A stretch of 64,000 bases of DNA from Candidatus Porifericomitales bacterium (GCA_965237735.1 CBDEFV010000007.1:143305-207304); one strand, 5' to 3'. Positions 4,963 through 53,140 are shown, counted from the first letter of the stretch. Translations and numbers: made by a program. The notes: generated by a model from the sequence alone, not told the origin.

Positions 4963-5140
4963 CGCCTCCGGATTGCGGTCGGGGTTCTATCATGATCACA
5001 ATATCGCGCTGGTCAATCACGAGCGGCCCTTGCAGGGAGCGCCCAGAACCTGTCTAGCCCTGTCGAACCGCGGGATTGCCATCGCTGGCCGCCGACTTTG
5101 CAACCCTGCCTTTTTTCTTGCAATTCAAGCTCCCCAAACA
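4963..5140 (+). promoter_or_regulatory. Conserved array leader
   Basis: gattgcggtcggggttctatcatgatc ... ctttgcaaccctgccttttttcttgcaattcaagctccccaaacaatgaaaagtag. Confidence 0.5.
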
Positions 5141-9089: not shown

Positions 9090-9102
9090 GTCGTCTGCCG
9101 AC

Positions 9103-10281: not shown

Positions 10282-10296
10282 GGGAATGAAGTTTGC

Positions 10297-38723: not shown

Positions 38724-40277
38724 ATGGCCAACAAGACTCCTCAGAAAAGGACTCCCGAGAAAATCGAACAAGATATTGTTCAAGCATCAAGGGAGATCAA
38801 GAAAAATCCAAAAAGCGCTGATGCATACAGGCGTCGTGGGGGCCTCTATTTTGAGATAGGCAACTATGATCAAGCCATTGAAGAGTTCTCCCAATCAATC
38901 GAGTTAGGCACGGATCAAAGAAATTCTGAGACTTACAGATTGAGGGGAGCTGCCTACATCAGAAAGGACGCATATGATCAGGCCATTAAAGACCTTAATG
39001 CAGCGATCGATGCAGACCCCGGAAATGCCACGGCATACTACAGCCGTGGATTGGCCTACAATGGGAAGGACGAATATGATCTGGCCATTAAGGACCTTAG
39101 TGTAGCAATTGATGCAAACCCCAAAAATGCCCTGGCATATCTCTACCGTGGATTTGCCTACAATAAAAAGGGGAAATATGATCAGGCCATTGAAGACCTT
39201 AATGTAACGATTGGTGCAGACCCAGAAAATGCTCTGGCATACAGAACCCGAGGAGGTTTCTACGCCGAAAAGGGCGAATATGATCTGGCCATTGAAGATT
39301 TTTCCAAATCAATTGAGTTAGACAAGGATCAAAAAAATGCTGAGACTTACAGATTGAGGGGAACTTCCTACACCATAAAGGGTAAATATGATCTGGCCAT
39401 TAAAGACCTTAATGCAGCGATTGATGCAGACCCCCAAAATGCCCTGTCATACGGAATCCGAGGAGTTGCTCACGCCGAAAGGGGCGAATATGATCTGGCC
39501 ATTAAAGACCTTGATGCAGCGATTGATGCGGACCCAGAAAATGCCTGGGCATACTACAACCGTGGAACTTCCTGCACCATAAAGGGTAGATATGATCAGG
39601 CCATTGAAGACTTCAATGCAGCGATTAAAGCAGACCCAGAAAATGCCATGGCATACTACAACCGTGGAGTTGCCTACACCGAAAAGGGTGAATACGATCT
39701 GGCCATTAAAGACCTTGATGTAGCGATTAAAGCAGACCCAGAAAGTGCCATGGCATACTACAACCGTGGAGTTGCCTACACCAAAAAGGGCGAATATGAT
39801 CAAGCCATTGGAAGCTTTGATGCAGCGATTAAAGCAGGCCCGGAAGATGCTTGGGCATACTACAGCCGTGGAGTTGCCTACATTAAGAAAGATGAATATG
39901 ATCAAGCCATTGCGGACTTCAACGAAGCGATTAAAGTAGACCCCAACAGTGCAACGGCACACTTCTTCCGTGGAGATGCATACAAAGAGAAAGGCGAATA
40001 TGATCGCGCCATTGAAGACTACAATCGAGTACTTGAGCTAGACCCGAAAAATTCTGAGGCGTACTTCTACCGCGGAATCACCTACATTAAAAAAGGCAAA
40101 TACGACCAAGCCATTGAAAGCTTCAATCAAGCCATTGAGCTAAACCCTGACTATGTGGACGCTTACGAGAAACGCGGCGAAGTTTACCTGATAAAAGGCG
40201 ATCATGACAGAGCAATTGAAGATCTCGACCGAGTGATTGAGCACATTCCCAACGATGTCAGTGAAGGGCAAACATGA
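38724..40277 (+). CDS. Tetratricopeptide-repeat protein (about 14 consecutive 34-aa TPR units)
   Basis: Repeating unit A.AYYNRG.AY..KGEYD.AI.DL..AI.ADP.NA. Several 102-bp units are nearly identical at the nucleotide level (e.g. 39651 vs 39753). Confidence 0.85.
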   Translation: MANKTPQKRTPEKIEQDIVQASREIKKNPKSADAYRRRGGLYFEIGNYDQAIEEFSQSIELGTDQRNSETYRLRGAAYIRKDAYDQAIKDLNAAIDADPGNATAYYSRGLAYNGKDEYDLAIKDLSVAIDANPKNALAYLYRGFAYNKKGKYDQAIEDLNVTIGADPENALAYRTRGGFYAEKGEYDLAIEDFSKSIELDKDQKNAETYRLRGTSYTIKGKYDLAIKDLNAAIDADPQNALSYGIRGVAHAERGEYDLAIKDLDAAIDADPENAWAYYNRGTSCTIKGRYDQAIEDFNAAIKADPENAMAYYNRGVAYTEKGEYDLAIKDLDVAIKADPESAMAYYNRGVAYTKKGEYDQAIGSFDAAIKAGPEDAWAYYSRGVAYIKKDEYDQAIADFNEAIKVDPNSATAHFFRGDAYKEKGEYDRAIEDYNRVLELDPKNSEAYFYRGITYIKKGKYDQAIESFNQAIELNPDYVDAYEKRGEVYLIKGDHDRAIEDLDRVIEHIPNDVSEGQT

Positions 40278-40301
40278 CCACGGATCTGAGGATTCACTTG
40301 A

Positions 40302-41024
40302 GTGAGTGACCAGCAAAGACATCGCTATGCGGTGACATACTATAATCGTGGGCTCGCCTACTTCAAAAAAGGCGACTTTGACAGTGCCTGTAAAGATTTT
40401 GAAAAAGTGATCGGTTTAGACCCTAACAACACCACTTCCTCTTTGGCGCGCCAGGGTCTTGAGATAATCGAGGCTTTTCAGAATGTACTTGGCCCTCGGA
40501 CGATTGAAGTTACATTTGGCCAAAGGGAGAATAAATATTTGCAGAGAAAAGCACTTTTGCAGAAACAGTATAATATGGCCTTGTGGGTAATTGGCTTTAT
40601 TGTCTTTGCGGTTATCCTCGTCGCTGCGTGTGTTGCTATAAAAATTCTTTCTGTAGATCTTACTTATGAGAAGTATCTCATAGTTGCCTCGGCAGCTTTT
40701 CTCTCACTCCCTTGGCTATGCTTGCCTTTATTTCTATGGTTGAAAAGCTTGAGCAGGGAAATACGCATTACGCAAGTATGTGTAGAAGATTACTTTCGCA
40801 AGCGGATACTGCTTACCCATGCCTTGTTACATCCATTTGGTTCGCTGGCACGAACTGAGTTGATTCAACAAACACATGCCCATTTTTCAGAGAAAAGCGC
40901 GGCTGAGTTCATAGCACAGATGGATGCTAAGACAAAAACGTCCGATCTGCACCCCATTGTTAGCCTTTTGTTAGATGAGAGGAGAAAAGCCAGCAATAAG
41001 AAACTACAGAGCGAAGAATCTTAA
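40302..41024 (+). CDS. TPR-domain membrane protein
   Basis: One N-terminal TPR unit (YAVTYYNRGLAYFKKGDFDSACKDFEKVIGLDPNN) then two hydrophobic helices (LWVIGFIVFAVILVAACVAI; AFLSLPWLCLPLFLWL). Confidence 0.6.
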   Translation: MSDQQRHRYAVTYYNRGLAYFKKGDFDSACKDFEKVIGLDPNNTTSSLARQGLEIIEAFQNVLGPRTIEVTFGQRENKYLQRKALLQKQYNMALWVIGFIVFAVILVAACVAIKILSVDLTYEKYLIVASAAFLSLPWLCLPLFLWLKSLSREIRITQVCVEDYFRKRILLTHALLHPFGSLARTELIQQTHAHFSEKSAAEFIAQMDAKTKTSDLHPIVSLLLDERRKASNKKLQSEES

Positions 41025-41239
41025 AACCACAACCCCTGCCGAGGCGGAGCGGGCAAACCTTGAAGACCTGAAGGGCCGCCGGCGCGCCGAGACTTGGAGC
41101 GAAGTCGTCCGCTGCCGAGAGAAGACCGCAGAGAGATTGCGGAAGATTCGAGTCAAAGGGGGATTCGGAATGATGGATAGTGTAGGATGGAATAGCCTTT
41201 AAGCTTTCAGCTTCCATCCTCAATTCAGGAGATTCCAAC

Positions 41240-41368
41240 ATGGCAAATCTAAACAAGGCCCTGTCTGTCAGCCGACTTGGAAAGGGAGTTGTAAAGGAAG
41301 CAGTAAAGGAATCCGCCGCCCGTGAGGCCGGCCCGGAGTACCTGAAAACGACAAAACAAATGGTTTGA
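41240..41368 (+). CDS. Small ORF (42 aa) coupled to the PLD-SNF2 gene
   Basis: MANLNKALSVSRLGKGVVKEAVKESAAREAGPEYLKTTKQMV. Strong Shine-Dalgarno (caggagattccaacATG). Its TGA stop overlaps the ATG of the downstream gene (TGATG). Too short for the ORF track. Confidence 0.4.
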   Translation: MANLNKALSVSRLGKGVVKEAVKESAAREAGPEYLKTTKQMV

Positions 41369-44300
41369 TGGCAAAAACACCCATGCTTCCCTCAGGCATT
41401 CGAGATAACCGCGACCGAGGCTCAGCCGGCGAGCACCTCGCCGGCCTGCTGGAGGCAAAGTCCCATTTATCGATCGTCTCGGCCTATTTCACGATTCATG
41501 CATACGGCGAGCTGAAGGAGGAGCTGGAGCAGATTGACAACCTGCACTTTCTCTTCGGAGAGCCGAGCTTTCTCGGCTCCCTGGGCAGGGAACAGAGAGA
41601 GTCCAGGGAATTCAGCCTGACCGAGCAGGGGCTCAAGCTGGTCAATCAGCTTCGCCAGAGCAGGCTCGCCAAGGACTGTGCCGGCTGGATCAGGCGAAAG
41701 GTTAAAATTCGCTCTGTGCGGGAAAAGTTCCTGCACGGAAAGATGTATCACATCAAAAATGGCGAAGACAGCCACGCCCTGCTCGGCAGTTCCAATTTCA
41801 CCGCGGCGGGGTTGGGTCTCAATGAGGGGGGCAATGTAGAACTGAATCTGGTGGTGGACAGCAGGCGGGACCGCGACGATCTGCGTGCCTGGTTCGACGA
41901 GTGGTGGAGCGACGAAACGGCGACCGAGGACGTGAAAGACGCTGTTCTACAGGAGTTGGAAGCTCTTTATTCCGATCAGAAACCGGAGTTTATCTACTAC
42001 CTGACACTTTTTCACATCTTCAAGGATTACCTCGACAGCGAAAAGGACGCCGCATCCGACATTGAACAGATTGCACTGCCGGACACGGACGTCTGGGAAA
42101 AACTATACGCCTTCCAAAAAGACGGCGCCAAGGCGGCAATCAACAAGATCAAGCGTTTCAACGGCTGTATTCTTGCCGATAGCGTGGGGTTGGGCAAGAC
42201 GTTCACGGCCCTGGCGGTCATCAAGTACTTTGAACTCAGAAATGAGCGTGTGCTGGTGCTCTGCCCCAAGAGGCTGGAACGAAACTGGACCATCTACCGC
42301 GACAACACCGAATACAACCCATTCATAGACGATCGCTTCAGGTACGATGTTCTCTCCCATACCGATCTCTCGCGGGAGGGCGGCCACGCGGACAGAATGG
42401 ATCTCGCCACCTTGAGCTGGGGGAACTACGACCTCCTCGTCATCGATGAGTCCCACAACTTCAGAAACAACAACGCCAGCCGAGACCCGCAGCCGGGTGA
42501 GATGCAACCCGACGACAAACCAAGAAAAACGCGCTATGAAAAGCTGATCGAAGACGTCATTAAAGCGGGCATAAACACAAAAGTGCTGCTGCTTTCGGCC
42601 ACGCCGGTGAACAACAATATTTTCGACCTGCGCAACCAGATTTCACTCATTGCCGGCGGCGACGTCTTCCGGGACTCCCATGCGGATGCTGTGTTCAGGG
42701 AACACCTCGATCTTCAGTCCGTGAAAGAGACGACCAGAATAGCTCAGCAGAGATTCACCCAGTGGTCAATGAACCCCCAGAGGGACAGTCGTGATTTGTT
42801 GGAGAGCATCGGCGCTGATTTTTTCAAATTGCTGGACGGGCTGAGCATTGCCCGCTCCCGCAGGCAGATCATGCAACACTACAAGGAAGACATGGACAGG
42901 CTCGGCAAGTTCCCGGAACGCCCGCCGCCCCGCTCCATTTATTCCCCAATCGACCAAAAGGACGAGTATTTTTCGTTCGAGCAGATCAATGAAAAGATCA
43001 AGAAACTAAAGCTCGCACTATACCACCCTAGCGGGTATCTGCTTCCCGACCTGCCGACTGAGATCAGAAAAAGATACGAAGGCAGGGTGCTGGGCGGATT
43101 CACCCAGGAAAGGCGAGAGAAGATTCTCATCGGCATGATGAGGGTCAATTTCCTCAAACGGTTGGAGAGCTCGGTGCATTCATTCTGTCTTACACTGCAT
43201 CGAACCATCGGAAAGATCGATGAATTGCTACAGAAGTTCGACGAATTCGAGGAGCATCGGCAGGAAAACCAGGAGATCGATTACGACGAATTCCTGGACC
43301 CGGACAGGTTGGATGATCCTGAATTGGAAAGCAGCGAGTTTGTCGTCGGAAAAAAGCGAAAATTCCGCCTGGCCGACATCGACATCCCCAAATGGCGGAG
43401 AGCGGTTAGCGGCGATCGGGAAACCCTTGGACATCTTTGGGCCAGGACCGAGAAAATCGGGCCTGAGCGGGATGAGAAGCTGGCGCGTCTCCGCAAAGAA
43501 ATCTTCCGCAAGCTGAATCATCCGACAACCACCAACAAGTACGGGCGCGAGAACCGCAAGGTTTTGATCTTTACGGCTTTTGCCGACACCGCCGGTTATC
43601 TTTACGACAACCTGCATCAAGAAATCCAAGGCATGGGTACTCATACAGCGTTGCTTCGCGGCGATGGAGGCAACAGAACAACCATGAGCACTGGTAGGGA
43701 TTACGACAACATCCTTACCAACTTCAGTCCCATTTCAAAAGGAAAAGAAAAACCTGAAGACCCGCCGAGTGAGCAGATTGATGTGCTGATCGCTACAGAC
43801 TGCATCTCAGAGGGGCAAAACCTGCAGGACTGCGACCTGCTGATCAACTACGACATCCATTGGAACCCCGTGAAAATCATCCAGCGGTTCGGGCGCATCG
43901 ACCGCATCGGTTCTCTCAACGAGGAGGTTCATCTGATTAATTTCTGGCCAACAGAGGATCTGGAGTCATACCTTAATCTTCAGCGCCGGGTCGAAGATCG
44001 CATGGCATTGGTCGATGTGTCAGCCACGCAGACGGACAACGTGCTGCAGATCCCTGAAACCAAGGAAGGAAGCGACGGCCAAATCACGGACGTCAGTCCG
44101 CCCTACGAAGCGGAGGGCCCTGAAGTCGGGAAACTCGTCGAGAACGACCTGCGGTTTCGAGATGAGCAGCTGAAGCGCATAAAAGAAGAGATTCTCGATC
44201 TTGAAGACTTTGAAGACAACATTGCCCTGTCCGACTTTTCGCTGGATGAGTTTCGCTCTGACCTGCTGCAGTTCCTCGAAGAGCGCCGAAAAGAACTGGA

Positions 44301-44760
44301 AGCGGCCAACCCGGGGCTCTACGCGGTGGTGCCGCCCGTTGAAGACAATCCGGCCGCCAAACCCGGCGTCGTCTTCTGCCTGCGACACCTGAGGCAATCC
44401 GGGTCAGACGATGCGAAAGTCATCAACCCCCTGGGGTGTTATTACCTGATTTATGTCCTGGACGACGGCACTGTGCGTTTTGCCTTCACCCAGCCCAAAC
44501 AGGCACTGAGTTTGCTGCGCAGCGTCGCGCGGGGGCATAAGGAGGCCCTCAGGGATTTGTGCCGCCAGTTCGATGAAGCGACTCAGGACGGCCGTGATAT
44601 GGAGCGATACGACACTCTGATCAAGAAGGCGTTGAAATCAATTAAATACACTTTTGATCAGCGAAATTTGGGCAATCTTTTTTCAGGGCGCGGTGGCAAA
44701 CTCGCCAGTACAAGCCAAGTGCCCTCGGAATCTGAAGAGGAGTACGAGTTGCTCACCTAG
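41368..44760 (+). CDS. Phospholipase-D-like (HKD) nuclease domain fused to an SNF2-family helicase
   Basis: N-terminal HKD motif HGKMYHI..GSSNFTAAG. The helicase motifs are ILADSVGLGKTFTA (I), LLVIDESHNFRN (II), LLLSATPVNNN (III) and LIATDCISEGQNLQDCD..QRFGRIDRIGS (V-VI). Confidence 0.85.
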   Translation: MAKTPMLPSGIRDNRDRGSAGEHLAGLLEAKSHLSIVSAYFTIHAYGELKEELEQIDNLHFLFGEPSFLGSLGREQRESREFSLTEQGLKLVNQLRQSRLAKDCAGWIRRKVKIRSVREKFLHGKMYHIKNGEDSHALLGSSNFTAAGLGLNEGGNVELNLVVDSRRDRDDLRAWFDEWWSDETATEDVKDAVLQELEALYSDQKPEFIYYLTLFHIFKDYLDSEKDAASDIEQIALPDTDVWEKLYAFQKDGAKAAINKIKRFNGCILADSVGLGKTFTALAVIKYFELRNERVLVLCPKRLERNWTIYRDNTEYNPFIDDRFRYDVLSHTDLSREGGHADRMDLATLSWGNYDLLVIDESHNFRNNNASRDPQPGEMQPDDKPRKTRYEKLIEDVIKAGINTKVLLLSATPVNNNIFDLRNQISLIAGGDVFRDSHADAVFREHLDLQSVKETTRIAQQRFTQWSMNPQRDSRDLLESIGADFFKLLDGLSIARSRRQIMQHYKEDMDRLGKFPERPPPRSIYSPIDQKDEYFSFEQINEKIKKLKLALYHPSGYLLPDLPTEIRKRYEGRVLGGFTQERREKILIGMMRVNFLKRLESSVHSFCLTLHRTIGKIDELLQKFDEFEEHRQENQEIDYDEFLDPDRLDDPELESSEFVVGKKRKFRLADIDIPKWRRAVSGDRETLGHLWARTEKIGPERDEKLARLRKEIFRKLNHPTTTNKYGRENRKVLIFTAFADTAGYLYDNLHQEIQGMGTHTALLRGDGGNRTTMSTGRDYDNILTNFSPISKGKEKPEDPPSEQIDVLIATDCISEGQNLQDCDLLINYDIHWNPVKIIQRFGRIDRIGSLNEEVHLINFWPTEDLESYLNLQRRVEDRMALVDVSATQTDNVLQIPETKEGSDGQITDVSPPYEAEGPEVGKLVENDLRFRDEQLKRIKEEILDLEDFEDNIALSDFSLDEFRSDLLQFLEERRKELEAANPGLYAVVPPVEDNPAAKPGVVFCLRHLRQSGSDDAKVINPLGCYYLIYVLDDGTVRFAFTQPKQALSLLRSVARGHKEALRDLCRQFDEATQDGRDMERYDTLIKKALKSIKYTFDQRNLGNLFSGRGGKLASTSQVPSESEEEYELLT

Positions 44761-44779
44761 GTTGTCATCCTTGCACCTG

Positions 44780-45157
44780 ATGCCTGACAGCCGCCGACAG
44801 GCCATTCAGGCAGCGCTTGAGGGGTTCAGCCCCGTTGAACTGCGTAGGTCCAGCCTGGCGATTCTCAATGCGCTGGGATATCCAGGCGACAGGACGCCAG
44901 GGATTTCCGATTCACCGGAGGAGTTCAAGGAATTTGCGAAAGACAAATGGCCAAACTTCAATGAAGACAAAGCGCGATTCAACGAATGGAAGCAAGCCAG
45001 CATCCTTTTTCAACTGACAGACGAAGATTTGAGCGATCGGCATGCAACCATGTTAAGTAAAAAATTCGATGCAGGAAGAATTCAGTCCTACGTTTTTTTC
45101 GCCATCGAATTGGATGGAAGCCGCTACTCCAGAACTGCTCTTTTCCGATGCCCGTGA
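44780..45157 (+). pseudogene. Probable N-terminal fragment of the PglX-like methyltransferase (frame-shifted relative to 45148..48492), or a separate small gene
   Basis: MPDSRRQAIQAALEGFSPVELRRSSLAILNALGYP..EEFKEFAKDKW resembles the extreme N-terminus of BREX PglX / DISARM DrmMI methyltransferases. It ends 9 nt after the start of the methyltransferase ORF, in a different frame. Confidence 0.4.
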
Positions 45158-48100
45158 TGGTCTTTTTCAGTTACGGCGGCAAAGTTTCCATTGCCATCAT
45201 CAACCGCCGGCGCAATCAAATTCATCAAGACAGGGATGTTCTCGGCAAAGTCACTTTGATGCAAGATATAGATGTCTTCGAGCCGCATCGAGGCCATCTA
45301 CAAATTTTGGAATCTTTTTCAGCCGATGTACTTCGCAGAGATCAGACGGTAGATAGTTTTGATTCGTTGCACGCCGCTTGGGAGAAGGCGCTTAGCGTTG
45401 AGTTGCTTAACAAGCGCTTTTATCTCGAGCTGTCCAATTGGTACTTCTGGGCATCCGGTAAGGTGGAATTCCCCGACGACATTGAAAAGGATCAAGAGAC
45501 ACGCAATGCGACCAGCTTAATTCGTTTGATCACCCGATTGATCTTCTGCTGGTTTCTTAAGGAGAAGGGGCTGATCCCGAAGGATCTGTTTGAGGAAGAA
45601 AAACTTGAAACGGTTCTGATAGATATGAAGAAAGGTGAATCATCAACCTTTTACCAGGCAATCTTGCAAAACCTGTTCTTCGCCACACTAAACCAGCGGA
45701 TGAACACCGATCAGGAGGCACACCGCAAGTTTGCCCAAGATGCGGACCTTCATACAAACAAAAAAGAGTATGGGGTCAAAAATATTTATCGATACAGAGA
45801 CCAATTCCAAGATGTTGGCAGGGCGCTTGATCTATTCAGGGACATTCCATTCCTTAATGGCGGTCTGTTTGAGTGCCTGGACCGCGAAGATGAGGAGGGA
45901 AGAGTGCAATATCTGGATGGCTTTTCGCGCAACCCCAAGAAACAGTCAAAGGTGCCCGACTATCTGTTTTTCGGGGACGAGCAGGTTGTTGATCTCAACA
46001 AGTTTTTTCAGGAAAACAATAAGAGAGGCAAAAAACAAAAAGTTCGAGGCCTGATTCATATTTTGAGCGACTATAAGTTCACCATTGTCGAGAACACGCC
46101 TATCGAACAGGAAACCGCGCTGGATCCTGAGCTCCTCGGCCTGGTATTCGAGAACCTGCTCGCCCTCTACAATCCCGAAACGAAGACGACAGCACGCAAA
46201 AAAACCGGCTCCTTCTATACCCCCCGCCCTGTAGTGGACTACATGGTCACTGAATCGCTTAAAATGCACCTCACTACAGCATTGACCGAAACAGGCATGG
46301 CTGAAAAAAGGACCCAAACCAAACTCAAGGCTCTCTTTGCCTACGCCGAGCACGGACACGGGCTCAAAGAAGCGGAAGTCGATACTCTTCTTGGTGCCAT
46401 CCATACCTGCAAAATACTCGACCCTGCTTGTGGTTCTGGTGCGTTTCCAATGGGTATGCTGCAGAGATTGGTCTTTGTCATCCAAAAGCTCGACCCGAAC
46501 AACAGTAAATGGAAGAAGCTCCAAATTGACAAGGCGAAGGAGATTCCTGACTCCTCTGCCCGTAAGGCCGCTATTGATGCCATAGAAAAAGATTTTGCCG
46601 ATAACGAGGACGGCTATGGCCGCAAACTCTACCTTATTGAGAACTGCTTATACGGTGTGGATATTCAACCGATCGCTATCCAGATATCAAAATTGCGCTT
46701 CTTTATTTCGCTGATCTGTGATCAGAAGACTAACCGCAACAATACCGAGAACCGCGGAATCCGGCCACTGCCTAATTTGGAAACTAAATTCGTCGTTGCC
46801 GACACGCTTATCAGTCTCGGGATTACCAGGCAACTCGACGTTTTGGTTGACAATGATAAAGTCAAGGAGATAGAAGAAAAACTCCAACGCGTTCGTCATG
46901 ATCACTTCACTGCCGACAAACGCGAACGTCGGCTTGAACTTCAGAGAGAAGACCGAGAACATCGCGATGACTTGGCCGAGGCACTGAAAGAAGGCGGGGC
47001 AGAGGAAATAATCAGACGCAAACTTGCCGATTGGAACCCCTACGATCCTCAGGAATCTGCCGATTTTTTCGAGCCTCGCTGGATGTTTGACAAAACTGTT
47101 AAGGATGGATTTGATGTAGTCATCGGCAACCCACCCTACATGAGAATCCAAGGTATTCGGCAAGTCTCACCAATTGCTGCTGATTACTATAAGAAGCACT
47201 ATAAGAAATCGGCAACTGGTTCCTTTGACCTTTATGTCATCTTCATGGAGCGAGGCATGAGCCTGCTTAAACCCAACGGCATACTCAATTACATCAATCC
47301 AGATAAATGGGTGAATGCAGCCTTTGGTAAGGGTATCCGAGGATATTCTGTCGAGAATAAAAGTGTGCATCGTTTGATTAGTTTCGGAGCACACAAGGTT
47401 TTCTCGGCACATACCTATTCTTCGTTGCTCTGGATGGGCAAAAAGCCAACAGATTCTATCCGCCTTGCCCGGCTTGATCCTGATGTTTCCAAATTGATTC
47501 TGATTGATGAGGAACTGGACAAACTATCAGATCAGGGTTTCACATCAATCCCATTTGATAGTCTTACAGATAGACCGTGGATTCTTATTGCTGGGGATGC
47601 TGCTGAGGCGGCGATGGACGCTATTCAGAGATCTTCCCGGACTGTTAGCGATATTTTTTCAAACATATTCCAAGGTATCGCAAGTAGCAAGGATTCTGTT
47701 TATTTTCTCAAAAGAGCCGAAGACTGCGGAAGTTTCTTCAAAGCCTATTCGGATGAACTTGACGAAGTCATCAAGATAGAAAAGTGGTTGGTAAAGCCGT
47801 TATTGTATGGCGAGCAAGTTCATCGCTATGAATGTCTTGGAACAGATAACGTTGTTGTATTTCCATATGATCTTGGGAACGATGATCTTCCGGCAACAAG
47901 ATCCCTGATGACTGCTGGAGATATTCAGACCAAGTTTCCCATGGGTTGGGAATACTTGGAGCGATGCGAGGAAGCGTTGAGGAGCCGTGAAAGTGGCCGT
48001 CTTAGCAATGACAATAATTGGTATCGCTATATCTATCCCAAGAATTTGCGATTGTTTCGGCTACCCAAGCTTCTCGCTCCCGACATCTCTTTCGGCGGAA

Positions 48101-48492
48101 ATTTTTCGATAGATGAAATTGGTAAGTTTTATACAACCACAACACTATACGGATACATCAAAAGACCTCATATTCGAGAAAGCTATAAATTCCTTCTCGC
48201 GGTGCTAAACAGTAAAGTGCTCTGGTTCTATGTGAAAAATTCAGGAAGTGTTCTGGCTAAAGGATATTATCGCTACACGCCCGGGTATTTAAAAAATTTT
48301 CCGATCCCAGAAGTATCTGATAGTAAGCAGGAGCCGTTCATTCGCTTGGTTGATCAAACCTTGCAGGCTAAGGCCGACAATGGGAATGCCGATACCAGCG
48401 AGCAGGAAGCCGAGATTGACAAGCTAGTCTATGAGCTCTACGGCCTGACTGCCGAAGAAATTACAATCATCGAAGAAAAAAGCAGGGCATGA
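45148..48492 (+). CDS. N6-adenine DNA methyltransferase, gamma class, of the PglX / DrmMI / MmeI-like family
   Basis: Helical-region signature LLNKRFYLELSNWYF and SLIRLITRLIFCWFLKEKGLIP. Motif I is ILDPACGSGAFPMG, motif IV is DVVIGNPPYM, and there is a long C-terminal target-recognition region. 1114 aa. Confidence 0.85.
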   Translation: MPVMVFFSYGGKVSIAIINRRRNQIHQDRDVLGKVTLMQDIDVFEPHRGHLQILESFSADVLRRDQTVDSFDSLHAAWEKALSVELLNKRFYLELSNWYFWASGKVEFPDDIEKDQETRNATSLIRLITRLIFCWFLKEKGLIPKDLFEEEKLETVLIDMKKGESSTFYQAILQNLFFATLNQRMNTDQEAHRKFAQDADLHTNKKEYGVKNIYRYRDQFQDVGRALDLFRDIPFLNGGLFECLDREDEEGRVQYLDGFSRNPKKQSKVPDYLFFGDEQVVDLNKFFQENNKRGKKQKVRGLIHILSDYKFTIVENTPIEQETALDPELLGLVFENLLALYNPETKTTARKKTGSFYTPRPVVDYMVTESLKMHLTTALTETGMAEKRTQTKLKALFAYAEHGHGLKEAEVDTLLGAIHTCKILDPACGSGAFPMGMLQRLVFVIQKLDPNNSKWKKLQIDKAKEIPDSSARKAAIDAIEKDFADNEDGYGRKLYLIENCLYGVDIQPIAIQISKLRFFISLICDQKTNRNNTENRGIRPLPNLETKFVVADTLISLGITRQLDVLVDNDKVKEIEEKLQRVRHDHFTADKRERRLELQREDREHRDDLAEALKEGGAEEIIRRKLADWNPYDPQESADFFEPRWMFDKTVKDGFDVVIGNPPYMRIQGIRQVSPIAADYYKKHYKKSATGSFDLYVIFMERGMSLLKPNGILNYINPDKWVNAAFGKGIRGYSVENKSVHRLISFGAHKVFSAHTYSSLLWMGKKPTDSIRLARLDPDVSKLILIDEELDKLSDQGFTSIPFDSLTDRPWILIAGDAAEAAMDAIQRSSRTVSDIFSNIFQGIASSKDSVYFLKRAEDCGSFFKAYSDELDEVIKIEKWLVKPLLYGEQVHRYECLGTDNVVVFPYDLGNDDLPATRSLMTAGDIQTKFPMGWEYLERCEEALRSRESGRLSNDNNWYRYIYPKNLRLFRLPKLLAPDISFGGNFSIDEIGKFYTTTTLYGYIKRPHIRESYKFLLAVLNSKVLWFYVKNSGSVLAKGYYRYTPGYLKNFPIPEVSDSKQEPFIRLVDQTLQAKADNGNADTSEQEAEIDKLVYELYGLTAEEITIIEEKSRA

Positions 48493-50507
48493 CCATTTCA
48501 AAGCTGACGTCCGCGGATCTTCATGCCGTGGACAGCCTGATGAAAAGTAACAGTAAGACGCTTGGCTTCCTCCCCCGAGAGGTCCTTCTCTACTTTCTTA
48601 AAAAAGAGAGTGTGTTGGGTACCAAGACTGATGATGGGCAACTCATTGGCTATCTTCTCTATGCGTCTTACCCAAACTATATCCGTATCACCCAACTTTG
48701 TGTGTCAGAAACCTTTCGAGGTCAAGACTGGGGAAAACAGCTTTTTGAGGAACTAAGAAAATCCGTTACTACTCAAAAAGACATACGGCTTCACTGCCGT
48801 AATGATTTTCCGACAAATCACATGTGGAGTCATCTGGGGTTTATTCCTCTGGGTGAAAAGCCTGGACGCTCTGCTTCCGGGCATCCTCTGACGCATTGGC
48901 ACTTTACTTTAGCCCGCGATGATCAGCTCAGTCTGTTTCAGGCAAAAGTGTCGGATGATGCCCATGATGTTGCTATCGATGCTCAAGTTTTCTTTGATTT
49001 TGACGAACCTGATAGTGCCAGGATAGCACCCTCCCAAGCGTTGTTTCACGATTTTTCGGATGATTTTCTCAGACTCTGGACAACCGATGAACTGTTTGTC
49101 GAAATTCACCGTGGAAAAGATCCAGATCGGCGCTTCCAATCACGGCAAGAAGTTCATCGGCGGCTAAGAAAGATAGAGCACAAGCGACCATTGGCTGAGC
49201 ACTTTGAGGAAGTCTTAAAGGGAATATTGCCAGTTGCTGGTAGTGAGAGCCGACTATCTGATATTCGGCATATAGCGAAGGTGGCCGCTTCTGATGTAAA
49301 GACTTTTGTTACCTGCGACAGAGCCCTTGGGGGAAAGGCCGACGATATTGCCGATAAGACAGGTGTGCGGGTGCTACAACCAACCGAACTGATTATTCGA
49401 CTTCACAAATTTTCCAAGCCAGAATCCTATAGGTCTACTCGGATCTCTGGTTCCGGTCTCATATTTTGCCGCTTGGATGCCGATAACCTCAGCCACCTTC
49501 CATACGATTCGCTACTTTATGAAGGAGAAAGGAGAGGCCCGTTCAAGGAAAAACTGAATGCTTTTCTTGCAGAGCCTGATCATTACAGATGCGAACTCCT
49601 TCAGTCCGAGGGGGAGACTGTTGCAATCCGTATTCTTACGAGCAACTCGAAAAAGACGTTGTCCATAAAATTAGCCAGAGTTGCACGTTCTGCTGCTCAA
49701 ATGCGGGAGCTCTTCGATCGGTTTTTAATAACAGACACCGTTTCTCAGGCTGTAGAAAAAAAGCTGAGTATGGTGAAGATTGAGAAAGATGCTATTTCTA
49801 CCAGAATGATGACGGGTCTTTACGAGATGGGCTTTACGGAATATAATGGCGATTTCGTGAGGTTTTGTTTTTCACAGTGCCTTGATCGTGAAGAAGCACT
49901 CGACGAGATTTCTGCCTTGCACCCTGAGTCAAAAGAAGCATATTTCAAGATGCAAGGCCCTGATCTTGAACGATGCTGCTCCCCCCTTAGCCTGAAAACA
50001 TCTGATCAGCCGTGCTTTTTAATGCCGATTCGTCCTGGTTATGCAGAGAGCCTTGTTGACCCAGAGCGATCAGCCGGCAGTCTCTTGGGAGGAGTGCCCA
50101 GTGTGTTGCTGAGTTGGTATAACATATATTATCGAAAGAAAAACCGACATAAAATGTTTGGGGCACCCGGGCGGATTCTGTGGTATGTAACTGCCCCCGA
50201 AAAGTGTCTTGTGGCTATTTCACATCTTGATGCTGTTGAGGTGGGTGTTCCGAAAGATCTATTCAGGAAGTTCAAAAAGCACGGCATTCTGGAGTGGGAA
50301 GAGCTTTATGAGATGTGTAATAAGGATGTTTCGAATGAGATTATGGCATTGAAATTCTCCCACACGTTTCCTTTTCGAAAACGCATTTCATTGGATAAAT
50401 TGCGGTGTATTTTCAAGAAGGACCTAGTTGGTTTTTCGGTTCAGGCCCCACTGAGGGTGCCGATAGAAACATTTCAAAAAGTATTCCAACACGGGTACCT
50501 GGAGTAG
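48489..50507 (+). CDS. GNAT-family N-acetyltransferase domain fused to a ~500-aa domain of unknown function
   Basis: N-terminal GNAT fold with motif A (ITQLCVSETFRGQDWGKQLFEEL). The remainder has no recognisable motif. Its start overlaps the methyltransferase stop (ATGA). Confidence 0.6.
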   Translation: MTISKLTSADLHAVDSLMKSNSKTLGFLPREVLLYFLKKESVLGTKTDDGQLIGYLLYASYPNYIRITQLCVSETFRGQDWGKQLFEELRKSVTTQKDIRLHCRNDFPTNHMWSHLGFIPLGEKPGRSASGHPLTHWHFTLARDDQLSLFQAKVSDDAHDVAIDAQVFFDFDEPDSARIAPSQALFHDFSDDFLRLWTTDELFVEIHRGKDPDRRFQSRQEVHRRLRKIEHKRPLAEHFEEVLKGILPVAGSESRLSDIRHIAKVAASDVKTFVTCDRALGGKADDIADKTGVRVLQPTELIIRLHKFSKPESYRSTRISGSGLIFCRLDADNLSHLPYDSLLYEGERRGPFKEKLNAFLAEPDHYRCELLQSEGETVAIRILTSNSKKTLSIKLARVARSAAQMRELFDRFLITDTVSQAVEKKLSMVKIEKDAISTRMMTGLYEMGFTEYNGDFVRFCFSQCLDREEALDEISALHPESKEAYFKMQGPDLERCCSPLSLKTSDQPCFLMPIRPGYAESLVDPERSAGSLLGGVPSVLLSWYNIYYRKKNRHKMFGAPGRILWYVTAPEKCLVAISHLDAVEVGVPKDLFRKFKKHGILEWEELYEMCNKDVSNEIMALKFSHTFPFRKRISLDKLRCIFKKDLVGFSVQAPLRVPIETFQKVFQHGYLE

Positions 50508-50521
50508 TTGTGAAAACGATA

Positions 50522-50980
50522 ATGATCCCTTTGCTGCTCTCTCTGAAACCTCGCTATGCGCAACTCGTTTTCAATGGCAAAAAAACTGCTGAACTGCGAC
50601 GGCAAATTGCTTCCCGCATGGAAAACCGCGACGTGTTTATTTACGTTTCCGGCCCGGTCAAGCAGCTTCAAGGCCGCTTTCGTGTTGAGAAGGTATGGAG
50701 CGGATCACCAGGGGAGGTTTGGAAGCATGTGTCCAAGCTTGCAGGAGTCAATAAGGAAGATTTTGATGCTTATTATGCTGGACGAGAGATTGCCCATGCT
50801 CTGGAAATAACTAATATTTTGAAGTACGAAAAACCCGCCAACCTAAGAGCGCTGAAGAAACAATTTCCGGATTTTGTTGTTCCGCAGTCTTGGAGATACG
50901 TTAAACCTGAAGAACACCGGTCTTTCAAAAGCAAGAAATTAATCCCACAAATCTGGTACAGAGAGTCGAGAGCCTCATAA
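50522..50980 (+). CDS. ASCH (PUA-like) domain protein
   Basis: MIPLLLSLKPRYAQLVFNGKKTAELRRQ...DVFIYVSGPVKQLQGRFRVEKVW fits the ASCH beta-barrel pattern (compare YqfB-like proteins). Begins 15 nt after the GNAT-fusion stop. Confidence 0.55.
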   Translation: MIPLLLSLKPRYAQLVFNGKKTAELRRQIASRMENRDVFIYVSGPVKQLQGRFRVEKVWSGSPGEVWKHVSKLAGVNKEDFDAYYAGREIAHALEITNILKYEKPANLRALKKQFPDFVVPQSWRYVKPEEHRSFKSKKLIPQIWYRESRAS

Positions 50981-51530
50981 AGGTATTCCAAATCATTCTT
51001 TGCTCCTGAATGTAAAACCTTATTCAATAGAGAACAAACACAGTCTGATGCCTGAGGTGGAACCATGATAGACATTGCCTTCGAATTTACCGGGAAATTG
51101 CAGGTATTTTCAGGAAAGCCCCCTGGTACTTCGTCTCGCTCCCCAAAGACGAGGCTCAAAGGGTATATTTTTTCCGTGAAGAAAGCCGGGGCTTTGGCTC
51201 TTTCAGGGTTCAGGCCAAAATTGGCCGCACGGAGTGGAACACATCCATTTTTCGAGATAACAAGAGGGATACGTATCTGCTGTTTATCAAGGCCGCTGTA
51301 CGCTCGGCTGAAAACATCAGGGTCGGCGATGAGGTGCGGGTTCATATTCGGTTACTGTAAATGCATGCCCCGAACAAAACACTATCGGCAAAGCACCTTC
51401 AGGCAGCCCGCTACTCGCACTACCCCGGATTTTGCCCAAAACCACTTGACTGCAGCACCGCTGTATACTATACTTAGATTTAATCAATGCAAGACCCCGT
51501 GCTCTGAAAGCATGATCGTGATCACAAAGA

Positions 51531-52931
51531 TTGCGTGAAGAATGGTGGGAGGCTTCCATTAATGGCCTCGCAAAACTCTACTTCCAGGTGCAGTTTATGA
51601 TGAAGGGTATTCCCCAGCTATCTGTTTCTAAGGAGATCAGAAGCTTTCAATCCTATGATCCAAAAGCTGTTCACTTGTTTCACTATGAAGCAAAGGGGCA
51701 AGACAAATTACCGCATGTAGTGAAGTTTTCGGGCGGGCGCTCAAGCGGCATGCTGTTGCTCATTCTTCTTGAGGCTGGAATCCTTAAAGCGGCCAGAGGC
51801 GATGTGATTGTTTTCAACAACACCTCAGCCGAGCACCCGGCAACCTATGAGTTCACGAAGAAGTTTAAGGAGATGGTGGAGAAGGACTATGAGATTCCAT
51901 TCTTCTGGATAGAATCCCAGACCTATGAAGATGCCAGAAACGGCGAATGGAATCGGCTGTTTTCGTATAGGTTGGTGCAGCCTGAGCCCTATTCAGAAAC
52001 CAACCCCGACGGTTATCACTGGCGTGGAGAGGTCTTTGAAGAATTGCTCTCAGGGAAAGGGTATGTGCCCAATCAATTCAACCGAGTGTGCACAGCCAGC
52101 CTGAAACTGGAAACAACCCGTGCTTTCCTTAAGGACTGGTTTGCAAATAAGCCTGGCATAGCGCGTTTAGGCCACTATGGAGATAAAAGCCGCCTCAACG
52201 ATGACACCCTTTATCAACGCCATCGGAGAAATCAAGGAGATATGCCAAGGGATGTTTTTCTTGAAAAAAAATCATTTGTCCGAAGCAGGCCCGTATTTCG
52301 CCCTGAGCAGTTGTTTGGTGACTTTTCCAAAGCGGCAGTTCCTTTTGAAAACAAAATACTTGAAGGACGACAACTCGGTGGCAATGCCTACTTTGGCCAA
52401 GATGGCGTTGAGTACATTTCTTTCATCGGTATCCGCTATGATGAAATGCACCGTGTTGTTAAAATCCGCGAACGAAACTCCGGCGAGACAGGAACATCTG
52501 GATACGAAGGCGAATATATTCATATGCCTCTCTCGGTCATGGGCATTACTCAAAAAAATGTTAATGATTTCTGGCGCGAGCAGCCATGGGATTTAAGACT
52601 TGACGCAGAGGATGGTTTATCGAATTGCACCTACTGCTTCCTTAAGGGTGCAAGAGGTTTGCAAAAGGTTAGATCCAAACTACAAAAGAGCCTTCCAAAG
52701 AGTTGGGTTCAAACACCTTCAGATATCGCTTGGTGGGTATCCATGGAACGGAAATATGGCCGGGATATGAAGAGAGAAAAACGCAAGCTGCGTAAAAATG
52801 GAACTGATTTTATTGGATTCTTCGGGTCGGACAACAGATTTTCGTACAAATTACTGGCGAACGACACTCATAGAGACAGGATTGTGGCCCAAAATGCCGA
52901 CAGCATGTTGCCGTGCGATTGTACTGATTAG
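51531..52931 (+). CDS. PAPS-reductase-like PP-loop ATP pyrophosphatase (DndC/SspD-like)
   Basis: PP-loop variant VVKFSGGRSSGMLLLILLEAG (compare SGGKDS in DndC/CysH). C-terminal Cys motif NCTYCFLKG. Possible alternative start at MMKGIPQ (51597). Confidence 0.6.
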   Translation: MREEWWEASINGLAKLYFQVQFMMKGIPQLSVSKEIRSFQSYDPKAVHLFHYEAKGQDKLPHVVKFSGGRSSGMLLLILLEAGILKAARGDVIVFNNTSAEHPATYEFTKKFKEMVEKDYEIPFFWIESQTYEDARNGEWNRLFSYRLVQPEPYSETNPDGYHWRGEVFEELLSGKGYVPNQFNRVCTASLKLETTRAFLKDWFANKPGIARLGHYGDKSRLNDDTLYQRHRRNQGDMPRDVFLEKKSFVRSRPVFRPEQLFGDFSKAAVPFENKILEGRQLGGNAYFGQDGVEYISFIGIRYDEMHRVVKIRERNSGETGTSGYEGEYIHMPLSVMGITQKNVNDFWREQPWDLRLDAEDGLSNCTYCFLKGARGLQKVRSKLQKSLPKSWVQTPSDIAWWVSMERKYGRDMKREKRKLRKNGTDFIGFFGSDNRFSYKLLANDTHRDRIVAQNADSMLPCDCTD

Positions 52932-53140
52932 GAACAAGCTCTGCAAACAAAGGGCATTCAGACAACGGTAACAATGGATAAAAGCAAAGTAGCGAGGCCT
53001 GATCTCCACTTTAATCGCAGTGACAAAGTGGTTGATTCTATGCCGATCGGAACAACTGCATATGGCAATGATCCAACCATAGTCGTCAGTGAATTCCTAC
53101 AAAACTCAGAAGTTTCAGTCACCTTCTGCCTGGATCAGGC

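What the first reader, a model, noticed from the sequence alone, without database searches (positions are those of the whole stretch)
41368..48492. PLD-nuclease-SNF2 helicase fusion paired with a PglX/DrmMI-like adenine methyltransferase: a reduced, fused DISARM/BREX-like module
Class 1 DISARM encodes separate DrmC (PLD), DrmD (SNF2 helicase) and DrmMI (gamma-class adenine methyltransferase with the same N-terminal helical signature), plus DrmA and DrmB. BREX PglX is the same methyltransferase family. Here PLD and SNF2 are fused into one 1131-aa protein directly upstream of the methyltransferase. No DrmA/DrmB (DUF1998 helicase) or BrxC/PglZ homologues are recognisable nearby. This is either a minimal two-gene variant, a new arrangement, or a Type ISP/IIG-like restriction-modification system with a helicase-nuclease. 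The downstream GNAT-fusion and ASCH genes are coupled by a start/stop overlap and a 15-nt gap and may be additional components.
Basis: partly seen in the sequence, partly recalled or inferred. Interest (0 to 1): 0.7.

Follow-up and report, generated by a model that had tools for sequence, protein, structure and literature searches.

The report
Two-gene helicase-nuclease plus methyltransferase defence module
A nuclease-helicase gene and a DNA methyltransferase gene form a restriction-like anti-phage pair that is conserved across many bacterial phyla but has no name in the literature I could search, and the methyltransferase copy in this window carries a deletion in the domain that seems to link the two proteins.

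Summary
The PLD-nuclease/SNF2-helicase fusion (41383-44760) is real and intact.

The methyltransferase gene starts at 44780, not 45148. That is 19 nt after the helicase stop. Ten conserved codons plus one base are missing near 45137-45150, which splits the gene into 125-aa and 1114-aa ORFs.

In 82 related loci from many phyla:
- 69 carry this methyltransferase family beside the helicase-nuclease, nearly always directly downstream on the same strand.
- 6 carry a free-standing DUF4391 protein plus a complete Type III restriction-modification system instead.
- 7 are cut by a contig end.

The N-terminal domain of the methyltransferase is DUF4391-like. It looks like a decayed restriction-nuclease fold.

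No DrmA, DrmB, BrxC, PglZ or DUF499 gene is present. Curated DrmD and PglX models score far below their cut-offs. So this is not DISARM, BREX or MANTIS. It is a separate two-gene restriction-like system, closest in logic to MANTIS and to Type IIL/ISP enzymes.

The GNAT-ASCH fusion and the ASCH gene form a separate, mobile pair. That pair recurs at the 3' end of restriction-type operons.

Verdict: new variant of a known kind, and possibly defective in this window.

The parts
41383..44760 (+). PLD(HKD)-nuclease / SNF2-family ATPase fusion, 1125 aa, the predicted restriction effector. Alternative starts are TTG 41365 and ATG 41368.
   Evidence: Pfam PLDc_2, SNF2-rel_dom, ResIII and Helicase_C. 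PADLOC C3a139 'HKD+Snf2' 8.6e-130. Aligns end to end with more than 120 homologues at 55-66% identity. Closest solved sequences are RapA.
41734..41799 (+). Single HKD motif: H118-G-K120 ... G-S-S-N138.
   Evidence: H118, K120 and GSSN are invariant in a 20-sequence alignment. Coordinates. One HKD per chain implies an active site built by a dimer; this rests on established PLD-nuclease knowledge and on the MtsD dimer structure reported in bioRxiv 10.64898/2026.09.23.753747.
42187..43911 (+). SNF2 ATPase core: Walker A GLGKT (42187-42201), DESH (42445-42456), SATP (42595-42606), motif VI QRFGRIDRIG (43882-43911).
   Evidence: Motif search. All are invariant in alignment A1.
44780..45157 (+). 5' fragment of the methyltransferase gene: a 125-aa ORF that encodes the first half of the DUF4391-like N-terminal domain.
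   Evidence: Aligns with residues 1 to about 121 of full-length homologues.
45137..45157 (+). Lesion: ten codons missing (homologue residues 122-131, including R126 and N129), plus a 1-nt frame change in a T4C2 run. Stop TGA 45155-45157 overlaps ATG 45157.
   Evidence: Three-frame translation. Repair by one T restores the alignment with a clean 10-residue gap. Residue conservation. The same sequence is present in a second public assembly record.
45148..48492 (+). Main methyltransferase ORF, 1114 aa. It starts at an internal conserved Met. It holds the rest of the DUF4391-like domain, an MmeI-like helical spacer, a gamma-class N6-adenine methyltransferase (motif I 46420-46440, NPPY 47128-47139) and a TaqI_C specificity domain (about 47950-48306).
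   Evidence: Pfam Eco57I 1.3e-40 and TaqI_C 2.8e-10. PADLOC Type IIG 3.3e-75 over residues 572-1111. DUF4391 matched by 16 of 17 homologue N-termini and MmeI_hel by 6 of 17.
48489..50507 (+). GNAT acetyltransferase / central region / C-terminal ASCH fusion, 672 aa. An accessory module, not part of the core.
50510..50980 (+). Stand-alone ASCH protein, the obligate partner of the GNAT fusion.
   Evidence: PADLOC PDC-M11B 2.8e-33. Follows the GNAT fusion in all 13 loci that have downstream sequence.

Best explanation
This is a two-gene, ATP-dependent restriction-modification-like defence module.

Gene 2 encodes a large methyltransferase that also determines specificity. It is built like a Type IIL/IIG enzyme: an N-terminal nuclease-like domain, a helical spacer, a gamma-class N6-adenine methyltransferase and a TaqI-type specificity domain. 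Its N-terminal domain has mostly lost the catalytic lysine and corresponds to DUF4391.

Gene 1 supplies the missing cutting activity in trans. It encodes an SNF2 translocase with one N-terminal HKD half-site.

Inferred mechanism:
1. The methyltransferase recognises a short asymmetric site and methylates one strand of host DNA.
2. On unmethylated foreign sites, its DUF4391-like domain recruits or licenses the helicase-nuclease.
3. The helicase-nuclease translocates on ATP and cuts once two HKD halves form one active site.

Shown here: domain content, intact catalytic motifs, strict synteny across phyla, and DUF4391 as the only element besides the helicase-nuclease that both locus architectures share.

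Inferred only: hemimethylation, recruitment through DUF4391, translocation-coupled cleavage, and the defence phenotype itself.

In this window the methyltransferase gene lacks ten conserved codons and is frame-shifted inside the DUF4391-like domain. This copy may therefore be uncoupled or inactive.
For: Synteny:
- 69 of 82 loci anchored on the helicase-nuclease carry the methyltransferase family. It is always on the same strand and nearly always the next gene. Six more loci carry DUF4391 as a separate gene, and the other seven end at a contig edge.
- The loci span Verrucomicrobiota, Planctomycetota, Chloroflexota, Cyanobacteriota, Bacteroidota, Pseudomonadota, Bacillota and others.
- The nearest relatives are isolated two-gene cassettes with overlapping stop and start codons.

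DUF4391 link:
- Pfam DUF4391 matches 16 of 17 methyltransferase N-termini.
- hhalign between the fused and the free forms gives E 4.6e-5 and probability 69% over the shared motif.
- HMM searches hit in both directions.
- Free DUF4391 sits directly after a helicase-nuclease homologue (39-41% identity) and before Type III Mod and Res on all 6 plasmids inspected, from E. coli, Enterococcus, Acinetobacter, Sulfitobacter, Desulforapulum and a methanogen.

Nuclease-like origin of the N-domain:
- D81 is kept in 91 of 109 and E110 in 84 of 109 homologues, but the lysine position in only 31 of 109. The window reads D...ELD.

Restriction-operon behaviour: relatives carry genes typical of restriction operons between the two genes, namely Schlafen/AlbA_2-HATPase_c_4, YhcG nuclease and Fic.

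Precedent: in MANTIS, a dimeric PLD/SF2-helicase effector acts downstream of a site-specific hemimethylating methyltransferase (bioRxiv 10.64898/2026.09.23.753747).
Against: - No experiment exists for this family. Cleavage, methylation and phage defence are all untested.
- D and E are still conserved in the N-domain, and about 28% of members keep the lysine, so some members may retain their own nuclease activity.
- In the Type III-associated architecture a complete Res nuclease is already present. The helicase-nuclease is therefore not simply 'the' restriction subunit everywhere.
- In MANTIS the methyltransferase needs an AAA+ loader, which is absent here.
- The window copy is damaged, so the locus may do nothing in this organism.
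- GC content differs between the two genes (54.2% against 46.5%). This hints at a mosaic origin.
Confidence: 0.65

Rival explanations
1. The locus in this genome is a decaying remnant. The methyltransferase gene is a pseudogene, or at best an uncoupled methyltransferase, and the pair no longer restricts DNA. This concerns the window copy only and does not conflict with the family-level explanation.
For: Ten conserved codons, including the invariant R126 and the near-invariant N129, are missing and the frame is broken at 45137-45157. The annotated start at 45148 is an internal Met with no Shine-Dalgarno sequence visible upstream. The lesion is present in both public assembly records.
Against: The helicase-nuclease and the 1114-aa ORF are otherwise full-length with all motifs intact. 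The 1-nt shift lies in a homopolymer, and the assembly is a long-read metagenome labelled about 7x, so it could be a base-calling error; that would leave an in-frame 10-residue deletion. The overlap TGATG at 45155-45159 would also allow re-initiation of translation.
Confidence: 0.4
2. It is a reduced or fused member of DISARM class 1 or BREX.
For: Among named families, PADLOC ranks DrmD (6e-35) and BrxHI/II (1.8e-24) highest for gene 1, and PglX (5e-25) and DrmMI (5e-23) score for gene 2. DISARM class 1 has separate PLD, SNF2 and N6A methyltransferase genes (PMC9142583).
Against: The conserved DISARM core, DrmA and DrmB, is absent from the window, and no recurrent family of that kind appears among the 82 loci. 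BrxC and PglZ are absent too. Curated NCBIfam scores are far below cut-off: DrmD 147 against 610, PglX 87 against 500. The methyltransferase scores much higher against Type IIG models (3.3e-75).
Confidence: 0.1
3. The methyltransferase is an ordinary self-sufficient Type IIG/IIL restriction enzyme with its own nuclease, and the SNF2 gene is an unrelated neighbour.
For: The methyltransferase and specificity regions match Type IIG models strongly. The N-domain resembles the DrdV and BpuSI N-terminal regions. D81 and E110 are largely conserved, and 31 of 109 members keep D...ExK.
Against: Synteny with the helicase-nuclease holds on the same strand, with short or overlapping spacers, across many phyla in every locus that has enough sequence. 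The lysine is missing in 72% of members and in the window. The same N-domain exists as a free 250-aa protein (DUF4391) that always follows the helicase-nuclease.
Confidence: 0.05
4. The helicase-nuclease plus DUF4391 is not the restriction subunit of the methyltransferase. It is an independent second-line effector that rides with methyltransferase-based systems, for example a SauUSI-like modification-dependent or anti-evasion nuclease.
For: In the second architecture the module sits beside a complete Type III system that has its own Res. PLD-helicase enzymes such as SauUSI target modified DNA, as cited in the MANTIS preprint.
Against: In the fused architecture no other nuclease is encoded, and the N-domain of the methyltransferase is mostly inactive. 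A protective methyltransferase would then have no toxic partner unless the helicase-nuclease plays that role. No reader domain for modified bases was detected in gene 1.
Confidence: 0.15
5. The GNAT-ASCH fusion and the ASCH gene are integral third and fourth components, making a four-gene system.
For: ATGA stop/start overlap with the methyltransferase. The same pair follows a distant (23% identity) PLD-SNF2/Fic/methyltransferase operon in a Nitrospira MAG (L085/L086) and in metagenome contigs L087/L088.
Against: The pair is absent from all 82 helicase-anchored loci and from the two nearest relatives. It also follows a Type I system and occurs without any adjacent restriction operon. It matches a separate PADLOC candidate, PDC-M11, and resembles the known (PIN)-GNAT-EVE plus ASCH operons that associate with restriction systems (PMC7641849).
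Confidence: 0.12

Closest known systems
MANTIS (Gao_RL, Type-2 DUF499-centred BREX-related system; MtsA-D)
   Same: The effector has one N-terminal HKD/PLD nuclease domain followed by an SF2 helicase-like ATPase. The catalytic His is at residue 122 in MtsD and at 118 here. A site-specific N6-adenine methyltransferase sets specificity. A small partner protein or domain sits in the operon: MtsB there, DUF4391 here.
   Different: No DUF499 AAA+ ATPase (MtsA) and no MtsB-type DUF protein were detected here. The methyltransferase is of the Eco57I/TaqI_C (YeeA/PglX-like) type, not the COG1743 type. There are two genes instead of four. I could not compare sequences with MtsD directly.
DISARM class 1 (DrmA, DrmB, DrmC, DrmD, DrmMI)
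   Same: It contains a PLD nuclease, an SNF2 helicase and an N6-adenine methyltransferase. DrmD is the best-scoring named family for gene 1.
   Different: The core DrmA helicase and the DUF1998 protein DrmB are absent. PLD and SNF2 are fused. Scores are far below curated cut-offs.
ARMADA and BREX type 3 (BrxHII-like SNF2 helicase next to a PglX-like methyltransferase)
   Same: An adjacent RapA/BrxHII-like SNF2 helicase and a YeeA/PglX-like methyltransferase form a gene pair (PMC12458937; RapA is the top solved match).
   Different: No YprA-like helicase, BrxC or PglZ. The helicase carries an HKD nuclease. The methyltransferase carries a DUF4391-like N-domain.
Type IIL/IIG restriction-modification enzymes (MmeI, DrdV, BpuSI, Eco57I)
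   Same: The layout of gene 2 is the same: N-terminal nuclease-fold domain, helical spacer, gamma-class methyltransferase and C-terminal specificity domain.
   Different: The nuclease catalytic lysine is lost in most members and in the window. A separate helicase-nuclease partner is obligatory.
Type ISP enzymes (LlaGI, LlaBIII), from my own knowledge
   Same: The same four activities are combined: nuclease, SF2 motor, gamma-class methyltransferase and specificity domain. This predicts translocation-coupled cleavage between asymmetric sites.
   Different: Those are single polypeptides with an Mrr-type nuclease and a different helicase lineage. Here there are two polypeptides, with a PLD nuclease and an SNF2 motor.
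(PIN)-GNAT-EVE plus ASCH operons and PADLOC candidate PDC-M11 (for the downstream pair only)
   Same: A GNAT fused to a PUA-like reader domain, followed by a separate ASCH gene, placed beside restriction systems (PMC7641849).
   Different: The C-terminal reader is ASCH, not EVE. GNAT is N-terminal. The match to PDC-M11A is weak (3.5e-9).

Membership tests
DISARM | DrmA helicase and DrmB (DUF1998) core | tested here: not met
   No DUF1998 or DrmA-type protein among the island genes or the other large ORFs of the window. No recurrent family of that kind in 82 related loci. Definition from PMC9142583.
DISARM | DrmD SNF2 helicase (NCBIfam NF038317 equivalog) | tested here: not met
   147.1 bits against a cut-off of 610.
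DISARM | DrmC PLD nuclease | tested here: inconclusive
   A PLD domain with an intact HKD motif is present, but fused to the helicase. I did not test it against a DrmC-specific model.
DISARM | DrmMI adenine methyltransferase | tested here: inconclusive
   PADLOC DrmMI 4.7e-23, covering only residues 345-516. This is much weaker than the Type IIG models.
BREX | BrxC/PglY ATPase and PglZ phosphatase | tested here: not met
   No hits among the island proteins or the other large ORFs scanned.
BREX | PglX methyltransferase (NCBIfam BREX_1_MTaseX) | tested here: not met
   86.7 bits against a cut-off of 500.
MANTIS / Type-2 BREX-related system | DUF499 AAA+ ATPase (MtsA) and small DUF3780/DUF3870 protein (MtsB) | tested here: not met
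   Pfam scans of all neighbouring genes returned neither family. Neither appeared among the accessory gene families I annotated in related loci. Definition.
MANTIS / Type-2 BREX-related system | HKD nuclease at the N-terminus of an SF2/SNF2 helicase (MtsD architecture) | tested here: met
   HKD at residues 118-138 and SNF2 core at 269-843. No MtsD sequence was available, so sequence-level orthology is untested.
ARMADA | [quoted passage not shown] | tested here: not met
   No second helicase in the window island. Definition from PMC12458937.
Type IIG/IIL restriction-modification enzyme | Gamma-class N6A methyltransferase with a C-terminal specificity domain in one chain | tested here: met
   Eco57I 1.3e-40, TaqI_C 2.8e-10, PADLOC REase_MTase_IIG 3.3e-75. 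Motif I lies before NPPY.
Type IIG/IIL restriction-modification enzyme | Active PD-(D/E)xK nuclease domain in the same chain | tested here: not met
Type III restriction-modification | Mod (N6_N4_Mtase) plus Res (ResIII helicase with endonuclease domain) | tested here: not met
   Absent from the window. Present in sister loci that carry free DUF4391.
Type ISP restriction-modification | Single polypeptide with Mrr nuclease, helicase, methyltransferase and specificity domain | tested here: not met
   Two genes, a PLD nuclease rather than Mrr, and an SNF2 motor.
DUF4391 (Pfam PF14335) | Match to the Pfam model above the gathering score (29.9 bits) | tested here: inconclusive
   Below threshold: 16 of 17 N-termini match, best E 5.2e-7, and the first member scores 23 bits. 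Four homologues have a precomputed PF14335 hit on record. hhalign E 4.6e-5, probability 69%. HMM searches hit in both directions.
PADLOC PDC-M11 (downstream pair) | M11A plus M11B (ASCH) gene pair | tested here: inconclusive
   M11B 2.8e-33, which is met. M11A reaches only 3.5e-9 over part of the 672-aa protein.

The most novel reading that the evidence does not exclude
The helicase-nuclease and DUF4391 together form a portable 'effector plus adaptor' cassette that plugs into different methyltransferase platforms. In one form DUF4391 is fused to a Type IIL-derived methyltransferase, giving a minimal two-gene system with no AAA+ loader. In the other form DUF4391 is free and sits beside a complete Type III system. 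On this reading DUF4391 is a decayed Type IIL nuclease domain that was re-used as the coupling or licensing element. That would make it a functional counterpart of MANTIS MtsB. The lesion in this window would then be a natural uncoupling mutation.
Probability: 0.35. Interest if true: 0.7.

Novelty: new variant of a known kind. Interest (0 to 1): 0.55.

Why it matters
Methylation-based defences that use ATPases (BREX, DISARM, MANTIS) are only now being worked out, and their many components make them hard to dissect. This family appears to do the same job with two proteins and no AAA+ loader.

It is also common. The N-terminal domain profile finds 2,477 clusters at 50% identity. The helicase-nuclease is on 128 sequenced plasmids, including plasmids of Listeria, Enterococcus, E. 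coli and Acinetobacter.

An intact homologue would be a simple model for testing how a methyltransferase licenses a translocating PLD nuclease. The work also gives DUF4391 a testable role. For genome annotation, these loci are probably being called as lone Type IIG or Type III systems, with the helicase-nuclease ignored.

Tried and rejected
- A tblastn search with the 125-aa N-fragment against the 82 loci found nothing at 1e-5. The fragment is too short and divergent; alignment with homologues settled the question instead.
- I first recorded the fragment start as 44781. Re-reading the sequence shows ATG at 44780.
- The 42-aa ORF that overlaps the helicase start (41240-41368) has no counterpart upstream of the homologues, so I dropped it as a component.
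- The promoter and terminator scan of 40900-53300 was no better than shuffled sequence.
- The Hma system was considered and rejected: it is DUF499-centred and uses a different methyltransferase.
- The MADS system was considered because of weak hits: mad2 for the methyltransferase (6e-13) and mad3 for the third-gene ATPase seen in 13 relatives (2e-12). I did not pursue it, and the window has no such ATPase.
- Two small proteins that follow helicase-nuclease genes (cluster c30 in L035 and L042; the 262-aa protein in L085) were not recognised by either DUF4391 profile.
- The context look-up for P0244 failed.
- The metagenome scan for GNAT-fusion loci returned only 11 loci, so statistics for that association are thin.
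- A literature search for DUF4391 found nothing relevant, and a search for Eco57I + SNF2 + PLD found no paper.

Full report
SETTING. The window has a host background of about 64% GC. A low-GC island runs from about 38 to 60.5 kb. All island genes discussed here lie on the + strand:
- two TPR proteins (38724-41024);
- the PLD-SNF2 fusion (41383-44760);
- the methyltransferase (44780-48492);
- a GNAT fusion (48489-50507);
- an ASCH protein (50510-50980);
- a 157-aa protein and a 466-aa PAPS-reductase-like protein (51065-52931);
- a pair resembling PADLOC candidate PDC-M33 (53141-56019);
- a DUF6339 protein and a GmrSD nuclease (56016-58756).
This is a defence island. The rest of the window holds a glycosyltransferase array, two RND efflux pumps and a tRNA cluster. 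It has no DrmA, DrmB, BrxC, PglZ or DUF499 gene.

THE OBSERVATION. Pfam finds PLDc_2, SNF2-rel_dom, ResIII and Helicase_C. The best PADLOC model is 'HKD+Snf2' C3a139 at 8.6e-130, well ahead of DrmD at 6e-35. The single HKD motif (H118, K120, GSSN) and all SNF2 ATPase motifs are present, and they are invariant among homologues.

The methyltransferase is also real. It matches Eco57I at 1.3e-40 and TaqI_C at 2.8e-10, and it has DPACGSG before NPPY. Its stated start at 45148 is wrong. The supposed 388-nt gap holds a 125-aa ORF from ATG 44780 to TGA 45157 in another frame. This ORF aligns with the first 121 or so residues of 1300-aa homologues, and those homologues cover 98% of the joined protein. 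Inserting one T into the T4 run at 45141-45144 restores the frame. The repaired protein then aligns throughout, except for a clean gap of ten residues. The gap removes R126, which is invariant in 109 of 109 homologues, and N129, which is conserved in 105 of 109. The gene therefore starts 19 nt after the helicase stop. It carries either a 31-nt deletion, or a 30-nt in-frame deletion plus a homopolymer miscall. The sequence comes from a long-read metagenome assembly labelled about 7x, and a second public record has the same lesion.

ARE THE TWO GENES A UNIT? Yes. I anchored 80 genome loci on the helicase-nuclease and added two loci found through methyltransferase homologues.
- A tblastn search found the methyltransferase in 66 of these loci, and ORF clustering found it in 69. 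It is always on the same strand and nearly always the next gene.
- Six loci, all Bacillota, have a different arrangement, described below.
- The remaining seven are cut by a contig end.
- No other gene family recurs in more than 13 loci.
- The two closest relatives of the window helicase (66% and 65% identity) are bare two-gene cassettes among housekeeping genes. In one of them the stop and start codons overlap.
- Where extra genes sit between the pair, they are the kinds usually found embedded in restriction operons: Schlafen/AlbA_2-HATPase_c_4-wHTH, the YhcG nuclease and Fic.
- Thirteen loci add an SMC_N/AAA_15 ATPase as a third gene. The window has none.

THE N-TERMINAL DOMAIN. The first 330 or so residues of the methyltransferase family match Pfam DUF4391 below threshold in 16 of 17 members. 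They match the MmeI helical spacer in 6 of 17.

A relic D...E-x-K pattern is visible. D81 is kept in 91 of 109 homologues and E110 in 84 of 109, but the lysine in only 31 of 109. The window reads E-L-D. I read this as a Type IIL-type nuclease domain that has mostly lost catalysis. The methyltransferase does resemble Type IIG/IIL enzymes, but it does not carry a reliably active nuclease, and the SNF2 gene is not an unrelated neighbour.

THE SECOND ARCHITECTURE. In the six Bacillota loci the helicase-nuclease is followed by three genes:
- a free 250-aa DUF4391 protein (2e-45);
- a Type III Mod methyltransferase (1.7e-199);
- a Type III Res enzyme.

Searching plasmids with free DUF4391 gave 31 records. 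In all six records I inspected the order is helicase-nuclease, DUF4391, Mod, Res, sometimes preceded by a small helix-turn-helix gene. In two of the six an insertion-sequence transposase sits inside the cassette. The six come from Desulforapulum, Enterococcus faecium, E. coli IncFIB, Methanomethylovorans, Acinetobacter and Sulfitobacter. In the four plasmids I checked, the helicases are 39-41% identical to the window protein over about 1100 residues.

The free and fused forms are homologous. Profile-profile comparison gives E 4.6e-5 across the shared motif, which reads FPMPVMVLF...INRR..K.D..KDVL in the fused form and IPYPLLLVF...KR..K.D..K in the free form. HMM searches hit in both directions. 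DUF4391 is therefore the one element, apart from the helicase-nuclease, that both architectures share, and it is always encoded right after the helicase-nuclease. The window lesion removes the helix just before its most conserved motif.

HOW IT PROBABLY WORKS. The following steps are inference.
1. The large protein recognises a short asymmetric site through its TaqI_C-type domain and methylates one strand, as Type IIL enzymes, PglX and MtsC do.
2. At unmodified sites, the DUF4391-like domain recruits or licenses the helicase-nuclease.
3. The helicase-nuclease translocates on ATP and cleaves when two HKD halves form one active site.

The best experimental precedent is MANTIS. Its MtsD is a dimeric PLD/SF2-helicase protein with a single shared active site (catalytic H122). 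It acts downstream of a hemimethylating methyltransferase and prefers inverted unmodified sites. The main caveat is that MANTIS needs an AAA+ loader and a small co-regulator, and this system has no AAA+ protein.

COMPARISON WITH KNOWN SYSTEMS.
- DISARM: the DrmA/DrmB core is missing, and NCBIfam DrmD scores 147 bits against a cut-off of 610.
- BREX: there is no BrxC or PglZ, and PglX scores 87 bits against a cut-off of 500.
- MANTIS, Hma and the other BREX-related systems: these are DUF499-centred and use a COG1743-type methyltransferase. Only the helicase architecture matches.
- ARMADA: this needs a YprA-like helicase.
- Type IIG/IIL: the methyltransferase layout matches, but the nuclease requirement fails.
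- Literature: I found no paper that describes a PLD-SNF2 plus DUF4391-methyltransferase pair. The helicase is in PADLOC only as a CRISPR-associated accessory family, C3a139.
- Abundance: the N-domain profile finds 2,477 clusters at 50% identity, 968 of them below 1e-30, and in the 150 best-scoring hits listed the match lies at the N-terminus; most are 1200-1300 aa proteins and the shorter ones look truncated. Helicase homologues occur on 128 plasmids.

- The two genes are always together, in all 13 loci that have downstream sequence.
- They are absent from all 82 helicase-anchored loci.
- Elsewhere they follow a Type I system, or a distant PLD-SNF2/Fic/methyltransferase operon at 23% identity, in a Nitrospira MAG (L085/L086) and in metagenome contigs L087/L088, or they lie in other defence islands.
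- They resemble the published (PIN)-GNAT-EVE plus ASCH operons that associate with restriction systems.
I treat them as a separate accessory module, not as core components.

VERDICT. The locus belongs to a widespread two-gene restriction-like family that has no name in the literature I searched. The family is related to DISARM, BREX and MANTIS in its parts and its logic, but it is not a member of any of them. The copy in this window is damaged in the domain that most likely couples the two proteins.

Noticed in passing
window 48-12725 (+): Ten consecutive paralogous genes of about 370-450 aa in a low-GC stretch (about 49% against a host level of 64%). The four I sampled all match glycosyltransferase families GT92 and Glyco_tranf_2_4. 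This is a tandem array of glycosyltransferase paralogues.
   Followed up: partly
window 12908-20796 (+): Two 1068-aa AcrB-family RND pumps with a HlyD-type membrane-fusion protein between them.
   Followed up: partly
window 48489-50980 (+); loci L084-L097: The GNAT/central region/ASCH fusion and the stand-alone ASCH gene form an invariant pair (13 of 13 loci). The pair tends to sit at the 3' end of restriction-type operons (Type I, or PLD-SNF2 plus methyltransferase). An acetyltransferase with two reader domains for modified bases suggests nucleic-acid acetylation or its sensing. The function is unknown.
   Followed up: partly
window 51065-52931 (+): A 157-aa protein with no hits overlaps the start of a 466-aa protein. 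The 466-aa protein has weak PAPS-reductase-like matches (SspD 8e-8, BrxP 9e-6, DndC), which hints at a DNA-modification enzyme.
   Followed up: no
window 53141-58756 (+): Four overlapping genes: a GHKL-type ATPase (PDC-M33A 1.8e-32), a weak PDC-M33B-like protein, a DUF6339 protein and a GmrSD-family nuclease. These probably form one or two further defence systems.
   Followed up: no
window 41383-44760 against 44780-48492: GC content falls from 54.2% in the helicase-nuclease gene to 46.5% in the methyltransferase gene, and stays at about 46% in the GNAT and ASCH genes. This suggests the operon is a mosaic.
   Followed up: no
window 41240-41368 (+): A 42-aa ORF ends in TGATG, overlapping the possible ATG 41368 start of the helicase-nuclease. 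It is not conserved upstream of homologues. Some homologous loci have a small helix-turn-helix gene in this position instead.
   Followed up: yes
window 38724-41024 (+); L085 11156-12769; L089 14804-16036: TPR proteins flank the module here. FRG-TPR proteins lie near the GNAT-ASCH pair in other loci. This may only reflect generic similarity between TPR repeats.
   Followed up: no
L001 13897-17963 (Pseudomonas aeruginosa): A Hachiman-like PDC-M23A/B pair (6.7e-100 and E = 0) sits directly after the helicase-nuclease/methyltransferase pair. An SMC_N/AAA_15 ATPase follows it, and an integrase lies upstream.
   Followed up: partly
L003, L005, L010, L015, L020, L044, L054, L055, L057 and others: Thirteen related loci carry a 500-610 aa SMC_N/AAA_15 ATPase as a third gene right after the methyltransferase. 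It weakly resembles MADS mad3 (2e-12). This may be a three-gene subtype.
   Followed up: partly
L085/L086 333-7989 (Nitrospira): A distant PLD-SNF2 (23% identity) is followed by Fic, an unassigned 262-aa protein, and then separate methyltransferase (378 aa) and TaqI_C (367 aa) genes. The methyltransferase is either naturally split or degraded.
   Followed up: no
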